Shown: in pieces, positions 9,598-14,137 of the stretch
How positions within the stretch are numbered: the stretch's first letter is position 1
How the letters are laid out: every line of letters starts with the position of its first letter
NCBI GenBank assembly: GCA_963720885.1
Contig: CAVRGW010000004.1
Span: 18,674-82,673, forward strand
From: an uncultured Actinomycetes bacterium
GTDB lineage: Bacteria; Actinomycetota; Thermoleophilia; Gaiellales; JAICJC01
Direction: 5' to 3'
Length of the DNA: 64,000 nucleotides
Notes under the pieces: model-generated
The model's input: the letters and a program-made list of their open reading frames with translations, nothing else
What the model was told of the DNA's origin: nothing
Database searches by the model: none
Position numbers and translations under genes: made by a program

Positions 9598-11034
9598 GTG
9601 GCGATAGTGGCGACACCCACCGGCGCATTCATCGGCGGCCAATGGGTCGACGGGGACGGCGAGCGGATCGACGTCCACAGCCCGTCGACCGGCGAGCTCG
9701 TGGGATCCGTGCAGGCGTCGACGCCCGCGCAGGTCGACGCCGCCGTCGCCGCGGCCAAGGCCGCATTCCCCGCCTGGCGCGCCACCTCGGTGCTGGAGCG
9801 GGTCGAGATCTGCCGCCGCGCGTTCGACATGTGCATGGAGCGCAACGAGGAGATCGCCCGGATGATCTCGATGGAGGTCGGCAAGACCATCCGCGAGTCG
9901 CGGGAGGAGATGGAGGAGTTCACGGTCGACCACTTCCGGCGGGCGTCCGAGGACGTGCTGCGGCACACCGGCGCCGTCCACCCGTCGACCCAGGAGCGGA
10001 CGACGAACAAGCGGATCCTGGTCGTCCAGGAGCCGATCGGCGTAATCGCCGCGGTCAGCCCGTGGAACTTCCCGGTGGATATCGCAGGCATCCCGATCGT
10101 GTACGGCCTGGCCCTCGGCTGCACCGTCGTCTGGAAGCCCTCCGAGTACGCGCCGCTGTGCGCCCAGATGTTCACGCAGCTGCTCTCCGACGCCGGCTTC
10201 CCGCCGGGAACGATCAACGTCGTGCACGGCCGCGGCGAGACCGGCGCCCAGGTCGTACGCCATCCGGACGTCGCCTCGATCGTGTTCACCGGCTCCGTCG
10301 AGACCGGCGAGAAGGTCGCCCGCGACGCCGGCCTCAAGAACCGGGTGCTCGAGCTGGGCGGCAACGGCCCACAGATCGTGCTGGCCGACGGCGATCTCGA
10401 GAAGGCCGCGGATGCCGCCATCGTCGGCTGCTTCTACCTCGCCGGCCAGTGCTGCACGGCGGCCGAGCGGATCCTCGTCCACTCGTCGGTCAAGGACCGG
10501 TTCGTCGAGCTGCTGGTCGAGCGGGCGCGGGGCCTGAAGGTGGGCGATCCGCTGGACGACGGCACGGACATGGGCCCGCTGTGCACGCCGGCCGTGCTGG
10601 AGCGGACGAAGCAGCACGTCGCCGACGCGGTCGACAAGGGCGCCACCGTCGTTCTCGGCGGGGGCAGCGACGGCCAGTTCCACGAGCCGACGGTGATCGA
10701 CGGCGTCACCAGCGCGATGCGGATCGCGCAGGAGGAGACGTTCGGCCCGGTCGCGCCGATCATGGCGTTCGAGACGCTGGACGAGGCGCTGGCCATCGCC
10801 AATGAGACGGAGTACGGGCTGACCGCATCCGTCTTCACCCGCTCGCTGCACGACGCGTGGAGGGCGGCGGAGGCGCTGCAGCACGGGACGGTCCACATCA
10901 ACGAGACCACGAACTACTGGGATCAGCTGGCGCCGTTCGGCGGCGCCAAGAAGTCGGGGTCGGGCCGCGAGCTGGCCGCGTGGATCATCGACGCCCTGAC
11001 CGAGACCAAGCAGATCACGTTCGATCTTGGCTAG
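9598..11034 (+). CDS. NAD(P)-dependent aldehyde dehydrogenase
   Basis: SPWNFP, KPSE, FTGS, LELGG, GQCCTA, EETFGP, PFGG.K.SG.GRE. Confidence 0.92.
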   Translation: MAIVATPTGAFIGGQWVDGDGERIDVHSPSTGELVGSVQASTPAQVDAAVAAAKAAFPAWRATSVLERVEICRRAFDMCMERNEEIARMISMEVGKTIRESREEMEEFTVDHFRRASEDVLRHTGAVHPSTQERTTNKRILVVQEPIGVIAAVSPWNFPVDIAGIPIVYGLALGCTVVWKPSEYAPLCAQMFTQLLSDAGFPPGTINVVHGRGETGAQVVRHPDVASIVFTGSVETGEKVARDAGLKNRVLELGGNGPQIVLADGDLEKAADAAIVGCFYLAGQCCTAAERILVHSSVKDRFVELLVERARGLKVGDPLDDGTDMGPLCTPAVLERTKQHVADAVDKGATVVLGGGSDGQFHEPTVIDGVTSAMRIAQEETFGPVAPIMAFETLDEALAIANETEYGLTASVFTRSLHDAWRAAEALQHGTVHINETTNYWDQLAPFGGAKKSGSGRELAAWIIDALTETKQITFDLG

Positions 11035-11326
11035 CTGTCCTGCCCACAGAGGTTGTGAATGCGGCTTTGGGGTGGTCGGTCGCCGAGGCTGCTGTGGGGC
11101 CGCTTGCGGTTGTAGTAGCGGATGAAGGATTGCAGGCTGCGGTTTCGGGTGGTTGAGTCGGGCCAGGTGTGGGCGTAGGCCGATTCGTCTTGGAGGGTGC
11201 GGATGAAGCGTTCGGCTTTGCCGTTCCAGCGGGGTGTGAAGGGTGGCGGGGTGATGTGGGTGGCGCCGATCCTGGTGAGCAGTGCGTGGAAGCGGCGGCT
11301 CTTGGTGTAGACCATGGCGTTGTCGG
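11031..11326 (-). pseudogene. IS481 transposase, C-terminal fragment
   Basis: (D)NAMVY..PFTPRWNGKAERFIRTL..YYNRKRPHSSLG, the integrase-core C-terminus. Confidence 0.9.
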
Positions 11327-11344
11327 GGCATGAAACTGCGTTGC

Positions 11345-11520
11345 GAGAGCCGTGGCCGCGGCGGGTCGTAGGATGGCCTGCCGGGGATTAGGGGCTCTTG
11401 GAGGAGCAGGATGGGTAGGCCGTGCTAACCGATGGGCTGCGAGCCCGGCGTTGTTCGTGGCCGCCCCTGCGACCCGCCCGGGTGTGCCGAGAGCACGGAT
11501 CCGTCCTTGTCGCTTTGCCC
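11345..11520 (+). ncRNA. Predicted bridge RNA of the IS110 element (boundaries approximate)
   Basis: Two stem/internal-loop/hairpin units at 11418-11462 and 11469-11513. Their loop strands match the target site and the donor junction. Confidence 0.7.
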
Positions 11521-11557
11521 ACCGTCTCCTCCGTGATCTCGACGAAGGGAGTGGTAC

Positions 11558-12892
11558 GTGGCGTTCTATGGCTTAGACGTGCATCGCGATCAGTGCGAGA
11601 TCGCGATTGCTGATCCGGATGGCGTGCGGTCTGTGGGTCGGATCGACACCAGGGTGGGTGCCGTGCGGCGCTTCGCTGAGGGACTCGGTCGTCAGGACTG
11701 GGTCGCGCTCGAGGCGACGGCTGGGGCAGATGCAATCGTGCGTCTGCTTGAGCCTCATGTCGATCGGGTGGTGGTCGTCAACACGCGTCGCCTGGATGCA
11801 ATCAGCGGCGCGAAGGTCAAGACCGACCGCCGAGATGCGCAGACGCTGGCGCGACTCTTAGCGGCTGGCCTGCTCGAGCCGGTTTGGACACCCGATGAGT
11901 CGGCTCGCGCATTGCGGCGGGTAGTGGCTCGTCGCGGAGCACTCGTTCGAGCGCGGACACGTGCCAAGAACGAAGCGCACGCGGTGCTGGCTCGTAATCT
12001 CTGCCCCCGCCCCGAGGTGACCGATGTCTTTGGTCGGGCTGGTCGGCGCTGGCTGGCAAACCTCGAGCTGCCATTCGATGAGCGGCTCACGCTGGACGGC
12101 TGCCTTCACCAGGTCGACTTCCTCCACCAGCAGATTGTCGAGTTGGATCGGATCGTGGCCGAGCGGTCGCTGGCCTCCGCGGAGATCCGCCGGCTGATCA
12201 CTGTGCCTGGCGTTAATGCCACCACCGCTGCGACCTTCATGGCCTGGATCGGCGACATTCGCCGTTTCCCATCTGCGCGGCACCTGGTGGGGTATCTCGG
12301 CCTCGATCCCCGCATCCGTCAATCAGGTGCGACACCAGCGCGGTATGGACACATCTCCAAGCAAGGCGCCTCGGAGGTCCGCCACGTGCTCGGCGAGGCG
12401 GTCTGGTCGGTAGTCGCGACGCCCGGCCCGCTGCGCGCCTTCTACCAGCGCATCCGGGCGCGGCGCGGCCCCCAGATCGCTGCCACAGCGACCGCACGCA
12501 AGCTCGCGGCGCTCTTCTGGCACCTGCTCATCCGCGGTGAGGACTACGCCTTCCAGCGGCCAGCCATGACCCGCCACAAGCTGCGACGGCTCGAGCTCAC
12601 AACCGGCGCCGCCCCACGCAAGGGACAAAAAGGCATCGCCGGCGGGAAATCCGAAGCCGTCTGGGCAGCGGAGCGTCAGCTCAGCCAGCAAGCAGAAGCC
12701 GCCTACAGCCGACTCGTCACCGATTGGCAGCCCAGTCAGCCAGCCAACACGGGTGCGGGCGCGACACAGGGGCGCGCATCCATCAGGCCCTCGAAGGGCA
12801 AAGCCGCGCGGCAGGCTGACAGCCCCAAACACCTGCACTTCGCTCCGTCAGTCACCCGCACCCAGGAGGCAGTCTCCCACGAACCGACTTGA
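11558..12892 (+). CDS. IS110-family DEDD recombinase/transposase, apparently intact
   Basis: GLDVHRD, VALEAT, KTDRRDA (DEDD), TVPGV, GYLGLDP..RQSG (catalytic Ser), ISKQG, ATARKL. RBS GAAGGGAG. Confidence 0.95.
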   Translation: MAFYGLDVHRDQCEIAIADPDGVRSVGRIDTRVGAVRRFAEGLGRQDWVALEATAGADAIVRLLEPHVDRVVVVNTRRLDAISGAKVKTDRRDAQTLARLLAAGLLEPVWTPDESARALRRVVARRGALVRARTRAKNEAHAVLARNLCPRPEVTDVFGRAGRRWLANLELPFDERLTLDGCLHQVDFLHQQIVELDRIVAERSLASAEIRRLITVPGVNATTAATFMAWIGDIRRFPSARHLVGYLGLDPRIRQSGATPARYGHISKQGASEVRHVLGEAVWSVVATPGPLRAFYQRIRARRGPQIAATATARKLAALFWHLLIRGEDYAFQRPAMTRHKLRRLELTTGAAPRKGQKGIAGGKSEAVWAAERQLSQQAEAAYSRLVTDWQPSQPANTGAGATQGRASIRPSKGKAARQADSPKHLHFAPSVTRTQEAVSHEPT

Positions 12893-12901
12893 CTTTCATC
12901 C

Positions 12902-13570
12902 GTCGGTCATCACGGCGTCGGGTGGGTCGAGGCCGAGCTGCGCATAGAAGCTGAGTGCGCGGACGAGGCAGTCGTGGTTGGTGTGTTGGTCCTCGCGGGG
13001 GTGGACTTCGGCGTAGGCAACGCGTGAGTGGTCGTCGATCACGATGTGGACGTAGTCCCAGCCGACGCGGCGGCTGCGCTTGTGTCGATCACCGGTCACG
13101 CGATGGCCAGGCTGGGTGTAGCGCGCCAACCGTTTGACGTCCATGTGCAAGAGCGCTCCCGGGCGTGACCACTCATAGCGGCGATAGGTCTGCCGCTCGC
13201 CGCGGCGACGCCGAGACACGCCATGGCGGTTGAGCACCTTCCAGATCGTTGAGCGCGGCTGGCGGACGATCCCCGCTAAGCGTCCCGGCCCCAGATTCGT
13301 CTCCCGCCGGGCCCGTAAGATCCGCTCTTCCAGCTCACCAGACAGCTGCCGCGGCGAGTGGCGCGGCCTGCTCGACCGGTCAGCCAAGCAGGCGAGCGAG
13401 CTTCGCTCTGGCTCGCTCGCCTGCCGCCAACGCTGCCACCACCGATACGCCGTCGCCGGCGACACACCACACCGCGCCGCCGCCACCCGAAACGACGCGC
13501 CCTGCTCAACCTCCCGCACCAACGCGAGCCGCCCAGCCAATCCGAGCTTGGCGTTAGCGTGCACAATCAT
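12902..13570 (-). pseudogene. IS481 transposase, N-terminal fragment
   Basis: HANAKL, DRSSRP..SP, RRYEWSRPGALLHMDVKRL, IDDHSR, ends at AVMTD. Confidence 0.92.
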
Positions 13571-13675
13571 CCGGGCCTCCCAATAGCCGTGGTCTTCGAC
13601 ACCCACAGCCTCCTGGGAGGCCCGGACGAACCCCGCCTACCCGTTCACAACGTCCGTAGGCAGCTCAGCTAGCTG

Positions 13676-14137
13676 CTACTGCGTCCAGACCAGGCACGGC
13701 GCGTTCCGGCTGACCCGCCGGGCGGCGCGGCGGTGGCGCCAGCGCCCGTACCTCGACGGATCGGGGCCGAACACCAGCAGCCCGACCTGGTGGTCGCGAG
13801 CGACCTCCATCGCAGCCCGCTCCGGCCGCGGGCTGTGGAACAGGAACTGCTCCGCCCGGACGCCGGACTCGACCGCCTGACGGACGGCGGCGGTCGCGGA
13901 ATCGAGCGTGTCCGGGTCGCCGAACGACCGCGGACCACGCGCAGCCGGGTTCACGTTCAGCGGGATCCCGTCGCAGACCATCAGCTCGCTGCCGGCGTCG
14001 CTGGCGGCGTCGATCGCGAACCGCACTGCCTCCGGCGCGAACGGCACGTTGAACGTCAGCAGCATCACTGGCTTGCCCGTCGTTCCTTCGCCCGTGCCGG
14101 CGGCCGTGGGGTCGCGGACGATGGTCGGCGTGCTCAC
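13676..14137 (-). CDS. Universal-stress-protein-like protein (module copy 1)
   Basis: GTGA overlap with the upstream gene. USP-like C-terminus LLVFGPD...VSRNAPCLVW. Paralog of 16213-16698. Confidence 0.7.
   Translation of the reverse strand: MSTPTIVRDPTAAGTGEGTTGKPVMLLTFNVPFAPEAVRFAIDAASDAGSELMVCDGIPLNVNPAARGPRSFGDPDTLDSATAAVRQAVESGVRAEQFLFHSPRPERAAMEVARDHQVGLLVFGPDPSRYGRWRHRRAARRVSRNAPCLVWTQ

What the first reader, a model, noticed from the sequence alone, without database searches (positions are those of the whole stretch)
11418..11513. Readable bridge RNA: loop 1 matches the IS481 target, loop 2 matches the donor junction
Unit 1: stem GGCCGTG (11418-24) / CGTGGCC (11456-62), inner hairpin TGGGCT-GCG-AGCCCG. 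Loop strand TAACCGA (11426-32) matches target bottom strand TGACCGA at 6/7, and GCGTTGT (11448-54) is identical to the target top strand. Unit 2: stem GCGAC (11469-73) / GTCGC (11509-13), inner hairpin GTGC-CGAGA-GCAC. Loop strand ATCCGTC (11499-505) is identical to the element's right end (12898-12904), and CCGCCCGG partly matches donor bottom strand TGCCCCGA. The guides converge on a GA/TC core inside GTCGG. Known: IS110 recombinases use a bridge RNA with target- and donor-binding loops. This looks like a compact, intact system programmed against IS481. Folding was done by eye.
Basis: partly seen in the sequence, partly recalled or inferred. Interest (0 to 1): 0.85.

Follow-up and report, generated by a model that had tools for sequence, protein, structure and literature searches.

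The report
Bridge RNA of an IS110 element
The stretch is the guide ("bridge") RNA of an intact IS110-family jumping gene that has landed in the catalytic aspartate codon of another jumping gene's transposase; this is a known kind of RNA-guided recombination system, here in a little-studied branch with its guide strands in the opposite order to the textbook case.

Summary
A 1580-bp IS110-family element (11325-12904; 444-aa DEDD recombinase) splits an IS481-like transposase gene at the Asp codon of its T-D-N motif. Soil-metagenome contigs carry the exact empty site, skipping 1580 bp. About 60 homologous loci share the RNA scaffold. Both strands of loop 1 change with the left and right target flanks (0 of 5000 shuffles; MI scan). 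The 3' strand of loop 2 follows the right end of the element.

Three amendments:
- The guide order is the reverse of IS621, checked on real IS621 copies. It matches the order reported for IS1111-type seekRNAs, although here the RNA lies upstream of the gene.
- The 5' strand of loop 2 tracks the left end only weakly. It has a covariation-supported alternative pairing with 11381-11386.
- The RNA extends 5' of the given range.

No RNA data exist for it. This is a new member of a known kind (bridge/seek RNA of the IS110 family), of modest interest.

The parts
11031..11324 (-). C-terminal part of the interrupted IS481-like (rve) transposase gene. It begins D-N-A-M-V-Y. The left target flank GGCGTTG is 11316-11322 and the left copy of the core TC is 11323-11324 (complement of GA in the Asp codon GAC).
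   Evidence: Pfam rve_3 E 5.3e-17; translation; sequence
11325..12904 (+). The IS110-family element, 1580 bp counting one copy of the core. The boundary is ambiguous within the shared GTCGG.
   Evidence: Contigs of two public runs join 11321 to 12902, skipping 1580 bp with 5 ambiguous letters. Ends are conserved in homologues. Single copy in its own genome.
11325..11335 (+). Left end: 5 variable bases (GGGGC, the 'right donor' half) followed by the subterminal repeat ATGAAA (11330-11335), inverted copy of TTTCAT at the right end.
   Evidence: A6 T7 G8 A9 invariant in 63 sequences
11381..11386 (+). Upstream strand of a long-range helix that pairs with 11477-11482 (the 5' strand of loop 2).
   Evidence: RNAalifold. 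In one search, 3 of its 6 pairs have changes on both sides (AU22/CG16/UG16; CG55/GC3/UA2; GC51/AU4/GU4) and 96.3% of cells are paired.
11413..11466 (+). Target-binding module. Outer stem GGGTAGGCCG (11413-22) with TGGCCGCCC (11458-66); inner hairpin 11433-11447.
   Evidence: outer stem 99.8% paired but nearly invariant; inner hairpin has a GC to AU swap in 13 of 63.
11426..11432 (+). Loop-1 5' strand TAACCGA. It is complementary to the TOP strand of core plus right target flank (TCGGTCA), with one A.C mismatch at the fourth flank base.
   Evidence: MI scan: RT+1..+3 against 11430, 11429, 11428 complementary in 77-85% of 52 loci; RT+5 against 11426 in 73%; RT+4 only 50%. Shuffle test 0 of 5000.
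11448..11457 (+). Loop-1 3' strand GCGTTGTT plus 2 bases (CG). It has the same sense as the left target flank plus core, so it pairs with the BOTTOM strand. The second core base is U opposite G (wobble).
   Evidence: MI scan: LT-5..-1 against 11449-11453 identical in 85-98% of 60 loci; second core base against 11455 in 82%. listing. Shuffle test 0 of 5000.
11469..11513 (+). Donor-binding module. Stem GCGAC (11469-73) with GTCGC (11509-13), 5' strand CCGCCCGGG (11474-82), inner hairpin 11483-11497, 3' strand ATCCGTC (11499-11505) plus CTT.
   Evidence: stem 98.1% paired with no change on both sides; inner hairpin pair UA46/CG11/GC3/AU2. The 3' strand equals the right end plus core in 56 of 66 loci, including the variants ATCGGTC (4) and ATGCGTA (1). 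Second core base against 11505 identical in 100% of 60 loci.
11558..12892 (+). Recombinase gene, 444 aa, GTG start. The stop TGA lies inside the terminal TTGACT.
   Evidence: Pfam PF01548 E 2.5e-15 and PF02371 E 6e-22. NCBIfam NF033542 'IS110 family RNA-guided transposase' 229.8 bits, cut-off 140. PDB ISCro4 and IS621 transposases, E 5.5e-12 and 8.8e-10.
12751..12863 (+). Conserved structured domain at the 3' end of the element, closed by GGGTGC (12751-56) with GCACCC (12858-63). It overlaps the variable C-terminal tail of the ORF.
   Evidence: closing-helix pair UA36/CG18 in 58 sequences. ORF stops differ between homologues. No guide-like signal.
12889..12904 (+). Right end: -35-like TTGACT (12889-94), subterminal repeat TTTCAT (12894-99), CCG, and the right copy of the core TC (12903-04).
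   Evidence: TTGACTTTCATCCGT found with at most 3 changes downstream of the gene in the loci whose contig reaches that far.
12905..13606 (-). N-terminal part of the interrupted IS481-like transposase gene, ending ...D-A-V-M-T. The right target flank is GGTCATCA, 12905-12912.
   Evidence: Pfam HTH_28, LZ_Tnp_IS481 (E 5.7e-8), rve (31.1 bits, just under the cut-off of 32.6); translation

Best explanation
Positions 11325-11557 are the non-coding left end of an intact IS110-family insertion sequence. Read on the + strand, this end encodes its bridge (seek) RNA.

The RNA has two stem / internal-loop / hairpin modules:
- Module 1 reads the target. [quoted passage not shown] The two overlap on a T-C (elsewhere T-A) core.
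- Module 2 reads the element's own joined ends. [quoted passage not shown] Its 5' strand (11474-82) is a looser complement of core plus left end.

By inference from IS621 and ISEc21, the 444-aa DEDD/Ser recombinase binds this RNA, brings a circular copy of the element (right end joined to left end) to the target, and exchanges strands at the core without duplicating the target.

Here the programmed target is the codons around the second catalytic Asp (V-M-T|D-N-A) of an IS481-like transposase, read on the antisense strand of that gene.

What is shown: anatomy, boundaries, the empty site, guide-to-flank covariation, stem conservation and some compensatory changes. What is inferred: transcription, RNA-protein binding, the circular intermediate and the chemistry.
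For: (1) Recombinase family: Pfam DEDD_Tnp_IS110 and Transposase_20; NCBIfam NF033542 above cut-off; nearest solved structures are the ISCro4 and IS621 transposases. D7, E52, D90, D93 and S256-G257 are invariant in 7 homologues at 51-63% identity.

(2) Boundaries: contigs of two runs (one 610 nt with no mismatch) join 11321 to 12902, skipping 1580 bp. Contigs across both occupied junctions are found in the same runs.

(3) Scaffold: a left-end profile hits 85 of 88 sequences. The 3 misses have contigs that end before the left end.

(4) Target guides: see the shuffle tests and the unbiased MI scan, which finds exactly two diagonals, one same-sense and one complementary. At least ten distinct guide/target classes are seen.

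(5) Donor guide: the 3' strand of loop 2 equals the right end plus core in 56 of 66 loci and changes with it in the rare variants. L078 (ATCCCTA in both the loop strand and the right end) is seen.

(6) Stems: 98.8% paired against 36-46% slid, and 72 cells with changes on both sides against 18.5 in shuffles (0 of 500). Invariant U-G/G-U pairs (63/63, 63/63, 61/63, 57/63) fit only the + strand.

(7) The same script finds the published guide layout in real IS621 copies of E. coli W, so the method recovers a known case.

(8) Prediction met: 17 of 22 loci of the CGTTGT guide class with a usable flank lie in rve-type transposase genes at the homologous place.
Against: - No RNA evidence: no listed run holding the stretch is on record as RNA.
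- The single-sequence fold is not better than shuffles.
- No sigma-70-like promoter or terminator lies within 11200-13000 of the integrated copy. The proposed junction promoter has a conserved -35 but only a weak -10 (GAAACT, read by eye).
- The two outer stems are almost invariant, so they carry no covariation.
- The left end (right-donor half) is followed only weakly by the RNA (RD+4 against 11477, MI 0.26). That strand has a rival pairing.
- In this copy the target guides carry an A.C mismatch and a G.U wobble.
- The homologous loci are related metagenome contigs, so shuffle counts overstate independence.
- The element is single-copy in its genome, and no second site with 0-1 mismatch to the 17-nt target exists there.
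Confidence: 0.93

Rival explanations
1. A half-guided donor. The RNA guides target choice and reads the right end, but the left end is recognised mainly by protein through the subterminal repeat ATGAAA/TTTCAT. On this view 11474-82 is structural, paired with 11381-86 as a pseudoknot, and is not a donor guide.
For: The long-range helix 11381-86 / 11477-82 has changes on both sides at 3 of 6 pairs. The left-end bases RD+1..+5 find no strong partner column in the RNA. The subterminal repeat is invariant in 63 sequences.
Against: The consensus 5' strand (TTGCCCGG) is a perfect complement of the consensus second core base plus left end (C-CGGGC-A). RD+4 = A goes with U at 11477 in 5 loci of two lineages. 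The shuffle test, though weak, gave 0 of 5000. The two readings need not exclude each other: the helix could mask the guide until the protein or donor binds.
Confidence: 0.25
2. Not an RNA guide. The left end is only a leader or protein-binding DNA, and its likeness to the flanks is a copy of target sequence picked up during earlier recombination.
For: No RNA data. The outer stems are invariant.
Against: The two matching segments have opposite polarity, overlap on the core and sit on the two sides of a conserved hairpin. They change with at least ten unrelated targets. Compensatory changes occur in hairpins, and G-U pairs are strand-specific. The protein belongs to the family whose RNA guidance has been shown experimentally (Durrant 2024, PMC11208160, passages and section 12 read; Siddiquee 2024, PMC11187229, sections 6, 9, 12, 13 read).
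Confidence: 0.03
3. Chance matches of short words in a G+C-rich sequence.
For: Single-sequence fold not significant. The 17-nt target has 81 places with up to 3 mismatches in the genome, against 20 for the reversed control.
Against: 0 of 5000 shuffles for both target strands, the MI diagonals and the exact empty site.
Confidence: 0.01

Closest known systems
IS621 bridge RNA (IS110 group; Durrant et al. 2024, PMC11208160; Hiraizumi et al. 2026, PMC13626964)
   Same: Encoded in the long left end upstream of a DEDD recombinase. Two internal loops, the first for the target and the second for the donor junction. Each loop pairs with both DNA strands, overlapping on a 2-nt core. No target duplication. 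A -35-like hexamer sits at the right end, as expected for a junction promoter.
   Different: Strand order is reversed. In IS621 copies of E. coli W the same-sense (bottom-strand) guides lie on the 5' side and the top-strand guide on the 3' side (same statement in the paper). Here the top-strand guide is 5'. The recombinase is 444 aa against 326-346 aa, with only a weak sequence match (E 8.8e-10 over the C-terminal domain). The core is T-C/T-A, not C-T. There is a 6-bp subterminal repeat, an extra 5' domain and a long-range helix.
ISEc21 seekRNA (IS110 type; Siddiquee et al. 2024, PMC11187229, section 12 read)
   Same: Upstream non-coding region. [quoted passage not shown]
   Different: The paper states that in ISEc21 the top-strand match lies 3' of the bottom-strand match; here it lies 5'. 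That transposase group is 345-385 aa. I did not see the ISEc21 sequence.
IS1111-type seekRNAs (ISEc11, ISPa11, ISKpn4; Siddiquee et al. 2024, sections 6 and 9 read)
   Same: The top-strand match lies 5' of the bottom-strand match. Subterminal inverted repeats with short terminal extensions.
   Different: In those elements the RNA lies downstream of the gene and the transposases are 330-350 aa. Here it lies upstream and the protein is 444 aa, the size class the paper gives for the subgroup of IS110 itself (395-455 aa). The paper notes a few exceptions with an upstream region (such as ISMtsp17) but, in the sections read, gives no guide order for them.

Membership tests
IS110-family RNA-guided element (bridge/seek RNA), broad sense | DEDD (RuvC-like) plus Tnp-domain recombinase | tested here: met
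   Pfam PF01548 and PF02371; NCBIfam NF033542 229.8 bits against cut-off 140
IS110-family RNA-guided element (bridge/seek RNA), broad sense | One long non-coding end next to the gene, holding a conserved structured RNA | tested here: met
   Left end 233 nt (11325-11557), with only 12 nt after the stop codon. Profile found in 85 of 88 sequences. Stems 98.8% paired.
IS110-family RNA-guided element (bridge/seek RNA), broad sense | Two RNA segments complementary to opposite strands of the target, overlapping on a core, that change with the target | tested here: met
IS110-family RNA-guided element (bridge/seek RNA), broad sense | A second loop complementary to the joined ends of the element (donor) | tested here: inconclusive
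   Right-end half met (56 of 66 exact, variants follow). Left-end half weak (4.28 against 3.92 of 6; MI 0.26) and in competition with an internal helix.
IS110-family RNA-guided element (bridge/seek RNA), broad sense | Precise insertion without target duplication beyond the core | tested here: met
   Empty-site contigs skip exactly 1580 bp, with 5 letters shared by both junctions.
IS110-family RNA-guided element (bridge/seek RNA), broad sense | RNA is made, binds the recombinase and is needed for recombination | not testable with these tools
   No RNA run holds the stretch.
IS621-type bridge RNA architecture | The 5' strand of each loop pairs with the bottom strand (left guides) and the 3' strand with the top strand (right guides) | tested here: not met
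   Reversed here. The IS621 control gives the published order with the same script.
IS1111-type seekRNA architecture | Guide RNA encoded downstream of the transposase gene | tested here: not met
   It lies upstream. The downstream domain shows no guide-like signal.
IS1111-type seekRNA architecture | Top-strand match 5' of bottom-strand match | tested here: met
IS1111-type seekRNA architecture | Subterminal inverted repeats of 7-17 bp | tested here: inconclusive
   ATGAAA/TTTCAT is a 6-bp perfect repeat, 8 of 10 when extended, set 5 and 3 bases in from the core.
Any Rfam 15 family | Match at the gathering score | tested here: not met
   5 matches at E up to 10 in 10500-14000. None is near its gathering score and none lies in 11325-11557.

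The most novel reading that the evidence does not exclude
This widespread clade is an architectural link between the two described layouts. The clade includes soil Actinomycetota and relatives, plus plasmids of Rhodococcus and Burkholderia. It keeps the IS1111-type RNA-DNA geometry (top-strand guide first, subterminal repeats) but has the break point of the circle moved, so that the RNA lies upstream of the gene as in IS110/IS621. In addition, its donor guide is masked in the free RNA by a covarying pseudoknot with an upstream segment that mimics the left end. That would be a built-in switch that could hold the RNA inactive until donor or protein binds.
Probability: 0.3. Interest if true: 0.55.

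Novelty: new member of a known kind. Interest (0 to 1): 0.35.

Why it matters
It shows that a bridge RNA can be read correctly from raw sequence, and it adds a well-documented natural example:
- exact boundaries and an empty site;
- some ten natural reprogrammings of the target loop on a constant scaffold;
- a large (444-aa) recombinase from the branch of IS110 itself, which the papers I read do not treat experimentally.

The reversed strand order in an upstream RNA bears on how the IS110 and IS1111 layouts are related. The scaffold could serve as another orthologue for programmable recombination. Biologically it is one more case of an insertion sequence that homes into the most conserved codons of other transposases and so inactivates rival elements. 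Large surveys of bridge RNAs already exist (Durrant 2024; preprint 10.64898/2026.10.21.760802, section 8 read), so the clade is probably in their catalogues.

Tried and rejected
- **Single-sequence folding** gave no significant energy, and its MFE differs from the conserved structure. I relied on the alignment instead.
- **Rfam**: nothing.
- **The search for related loci in genome contigs** with one protein gave only 4 loci. The metagenome scan with an alignment gave the 80 used.
- **L023** (fragmented match) was left out of all counts. L024 was left out of alignment A2 because of a tandem duplication, and one more of the 64 references was dropped with it.
- **First guide extraction:** my first extraction of the 5' guide mis-placed the hairpin in about 15 loci and was replaced. 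In one search, 5 of 66 donor-strand rows are still mis-extracted (GGATCCG x4, ACGGATC x1) and count as mismatches.
- **One-base register shifts:** seven loci (L064, L065, L090, L092, L095, L096, L108) have the 5' guide shifted by one or two bases. They were scored unshifted, against my reading.
- **Handshake-like dinucleotides**. The 2 nt after the core in the loop-1 3' strand resemble the first left-end bases (0.91 against 0.59, 9 of 5000). The same test for loop 2 against the right flank was not significant (838 of 5000), and the two cross-controls were not significant. I make no claim.
- **Downstream structured domain** was scanned for guide signals: none.
- **Pfam on ten open frames in the flanks of other guide classes:** 1 hit, 9 none. 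The frames were the longest open ones in G+C-rich DNA and may not be genes.
- **Promoter scan:** no promoter or terminator by consensus scan. The junction promoter could not be scanned because that needs a joined sequence.
- **RNA runs:** no RNA holder listed. Parts of the stretch without contig cover in X3 and X4 say nothing.
- **Circle junction:** no joint of that kind was listed. Contigs cannot show its absence.
- **Literature on a reversed order in an upstream bridge RNA.** I ran searches, and read the passages or sections named in the full report. None states it. Figures and supplements (for instance Durrant Extended Data Fig. 10c with ISAar29, and Siddiquee Supplementary Fig. 2) could not be seen and may show it.

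Full report
**What is in the window.**

Positions 11558-12892 (+) encode a 444-aa protein with the two Pfam domains of IS110-family recombinases: DEDD_Tnp_IS110 (E 2.5e-15) and Transposase_20 (E 6e-22). It passes NCBI's model 'IS110 family RNA-guided transposase' at 229.8 bits against a cut-off of 140. The only solved relatives are the ISCro4 and IS621 transposases (E 5.5e-12 and 8.8e-10).

The gene lies between two halves of a minus-strand gene for an IS481-like transposase:
- 12896-13606 carries HTH, LZ_Tnp_IS481 and the start of rve.
- 11031-11315 carries rve_3.

Translated, the halves end ...D-A-V-M-T and begin D-N-A-M-V-Y...N-G-K-A-E-R-F. The break therefore falls at the Asp codon of the T-D-N motif, 37 residues before the Glu. 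From general knowledge of rve (DDE) transposases I take this Asp to be the second catalytic D.

**Boundaries.**

The left junction reads GGCGTTG-TC-GGGGC-ATGAAA and the right junction TTGACT-TTCAT-CCG-TC-GGTCATCA. Across eight first homologues the bases shared by the two junctions shrink to T plus C or A, so the core is T-C here.

Independent proof came from public runs. A 610-nt contig without a mismatch (run X2) and a second contig (X1) join 11321 to 12902. They skip 1580 bp, with five letters (GTCGG) that fit either side. Other contigs of the same runs cross the occupied junctions. These may be the samples the genome was assembled from, so this is not independent evidence that the organism exists. 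It does show the uninterrupted target and an element of exactly 1580 bp.

The element is single-copy in its genome. No twin of this IS481 copy is there (best 67% identity). No other site matches the 17-nt target with fewer than 2 mismatches.

All coordinates and strings are correct. Alone, the sequence does not fold better than shuffles (z -1.83 and -0.59), and Rfam has nothing. The test therefore had to come from relatives.

**Relatives.**

Relatives came from three searches:
- 3 loci used (L021, L022, L024), from 2 of the 3 genomes besides the window's own that matched among 61 searched; the fragmented L023 from the third genome was dropped;
- 4 loci from one species-per-genome collection;
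- 80 from metagenomes, the best 80 of 481 confirmed.

They are 48-71% identical in protein. A profile of the left end hits 85 of 88 sequences; the three misses are contigs that stop before the left end. Two named plasmids (Rhodococcus rhodochrous BX2; Burkholderia sp. JP2-270 p2), with proteins 44-48% identical, carry the same scaffold upstream of their IS110-family gene (nhmmer E 1.1e-33 and 6.3e-32).

**Structure.**

- Overall, 98.8% of 1889 cells pair, against 36-46% when partners are slid by 1-3 columns.
- 72 cells have changes on both sides, against 18.5 in shuffles (0 of 500).
- The inner hairpins carry compensatory changes: G-C to A-U in 13 sequences, and U-A to C-G, G-C or A-U in 16.
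- The two outer stems (GGGYAGGCCG/TGGCCGCCC and GCGAC/GTCGY) are 99.8% and 98.1% paired but almost invariant, so they are compatible with the structure rather than proven.
- Invariant U-G and G-U pairs exist only on the + strand. This argues for a + strand RNA rather than duplex DNA or an antisense RNA.

**Guides.**

A blind mutual-information scan compared every alignment column with every flank position. It gives two clean diagonals in loop 1:
- Left-flank positions -5 to -1 go with 11449-11453, identical in 85-98% of 60 loci.
- Right-flank positions +1 to +3 and +5 go with 11430, 11429, 11428 and 11426, complementary in 73-85% of 52 loci.
- Position +4 is only 50% complementary.

The second core base goes with three columns: 11455 (same sense, 82%, the rest U opposite G), 11431 (complement, 87%) and 11505 in loop 2 (same sense, 100%).

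With loci collapsed to unique guide/flank pairs and the core left out, identity is as follows:
- 4.03 of 5 against 2.10 in shuffles for the loop-1 3' strand;
- 3.35 of 5 against 1.59 for the loop-1 5' strand;
- 0 of 5000 shuffles reaching either value.

The loci are related, so these counts overstate independence. However, at least ten unrelated target words are involved: CGTTGTC, GGTGTA, AGTTTTC, CCTACTC, TGACATA, GATTTTC, GCTTCTC, GAGTCTA, GGAAGTA, GCTGTA.

The loop-2 3' strand equals the right end plus core in 56 of 66 loci and follows it in the rare variants: ATCGGTC in 4, ATGCGTA in 1, and ATCCCTA in L078. Because it is nearly invariant, the shuffle test is not significant (968 of 5000).

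The loop-2 5' strand is different. Its consensus is a perfect complement of the consensus second core base plus left end, but it follows left-end variants only weakly (4.28 of 6 against 3.92; MI 0.26 for one position).

RNAalifold pairs that same strand (11477-82) with 11381-86, upstream of loop 1. Three of the six pairs change on both sides: A-U 22 / C-G 16 / U-G 16; C-G 55 / G-C 3 / U-A 2; G-C 51 / A-U 4.

Together with the GCGAC/GTCGC stem this is a pseudoknot. Either it masks the donor guide in the free RNA, or the left end is read mainly by protein through the invariant subterminal repeat ATGAAA/TTTCAT. I cannot decide between these. In this copy the helix has one G.G mismatch.

**Comparison with what is known.**

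Durrant et al. [quoted passage not shown] Siddiquee et al. (PMC11187229; sections 6, 9, 12, 13 read) state three things:
- In IS1111-type seekRNAs the top-strand match is 5' of the bottom-strand match.
- In ISEc21 (IS110 type, upstream region) the order is the reverse.
- ISEc21 targets the codons around the second D of DDE in IS3-family transposases.

I checked the IS621 layout myself. Four copies in E. coli W (annotated 'IS110-like element IS621 family transposase') give LT plus core ATCAGGCCT, and a same-sense guide at left-end position 64. The reverse complement of core plus RT lies at position 89, and the same-sense donor guide at 137.

In the window the order is the opposite in both loops. 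The element therefore combines three features:
- the upstream position of the IS110 type;
- the strand order and subterminal repeats described for the IS1111 type;
- a recombinase in the size class that Siddiquee et al. give for the subgroup of IS110 itself (395-455 aa).

In the text I could read, nobody states this combination. A 2026 preprint (10.64898/2026.10.21.760802, section 8 read) reports 86 covariance models for 32,190 bridge RNAs, many unlike IS621, so the clade is probably catalogued.

**Target biology.**

Of 26 other loci with the CGTTGT guide, 22 have a flank of at least 60 nt. Of those 22, 17 match the two halves of this transposase at the homologous place (35-63% identity); 5 do not.

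A second guide class (GTTTGTA) lies in the same gene family near the Y-N...R-P-H motif (5 of 8 loci with a hit). One locus of a third class lies 44 nt beyond the end of a Mutator/IS256-family transposase gene. This clade therefore often homes into other mobile elements, as described for ISEc21.

**Mechanism, and what is inferred.**

Shown here: anatomy, boundaries, the empty site, covariation. Inferred from the characterised relatives:
- transcription, probably from a promoter formed when the ends are joined. TTGACT lies at 12889-94; 17 nt further across the joint is GAAACT, a weak -10, read by eye;
- binding of the RNA by the recombinase;
- a circular intermediate;
- strand exchange at the T-C core.

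No RNA run holds the stretch.

**Verdict.**

It is a new member of a known kind of system, with a layout worth a note. Interest is modest.

Noticed in passing
window 12751-12863: The last ~115 nt before the right end are conserved at the nucleotide level in 58 distinct homologues and fold into a domain closed by GGGTGC/GCACCC, with a U-A (36) to C-G (18) swap. The ORFs of the homologues stop at different places inside it. It shows no covariation with flanks or ends, and its function is unknown (a 3' UTR structure of the recombinase mRNA?).
   Followed up: partly
L024 (reverse strand) about 1746-1981: This homologue has a tandem duplication of the loop-1 guide/hairpin unit (CTACAGGGA-hairpin-CAGTTTC twice), so it carries two copies of the target-binding strands.
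   Followed up: no
L022, L077, L083, L084, L103; L026:2893-3546: Other guide classes of the same clade also sit in or next to mobile elements. The GTTTGTA class lies in rve-type transposase genes near the Y-N..R-P-H codons. L026 lies 44 nt beyond the end of a Mutator (IS256-type) transposase gene (Pfam E 2.7e-56).
   Followed up: partly
L090, L097 junctions: Both junctions carry C-C where the guides of the same element specify T-C. This may be an insertion into a core-mismatched site or a later change. L106 and L048 have flanks that do not fit their guides (possible off-target or rearranged sites).
   Followed up: no
window 11031-11034: The stop codon of the aldehyde dehydrogenase gene (9598-11034, +; Pfam Aldedh E 3.4e-156) overlaps the stop codon of the convergent IS481-like transposase gene (11031-11033, -). 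That leaves no room for an IS481 terminal repeat on this side. This IS481 copy may be truncated, or it may supply the end of the neighbouring gene.
   Followed up: no
window 11426-11519, run X3 contigs: Contigs of a soil run match the constant scaffold but diverge exactly where the guide strands begin (loose ends at 11426 and 11457, one reading ...CTTTTCG). These are relatives with other guides in the same habitat.
   Followed up: no
own genome G000:C2:122054-122070 and C5:524425-524441: Two other places carry the left half of the target plus core and two more bases (GGCGTTGTCGG) but a different right half. They lie close to weak matches of the IS481-like gene and are possible half-matched sites.
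   Followed up: no
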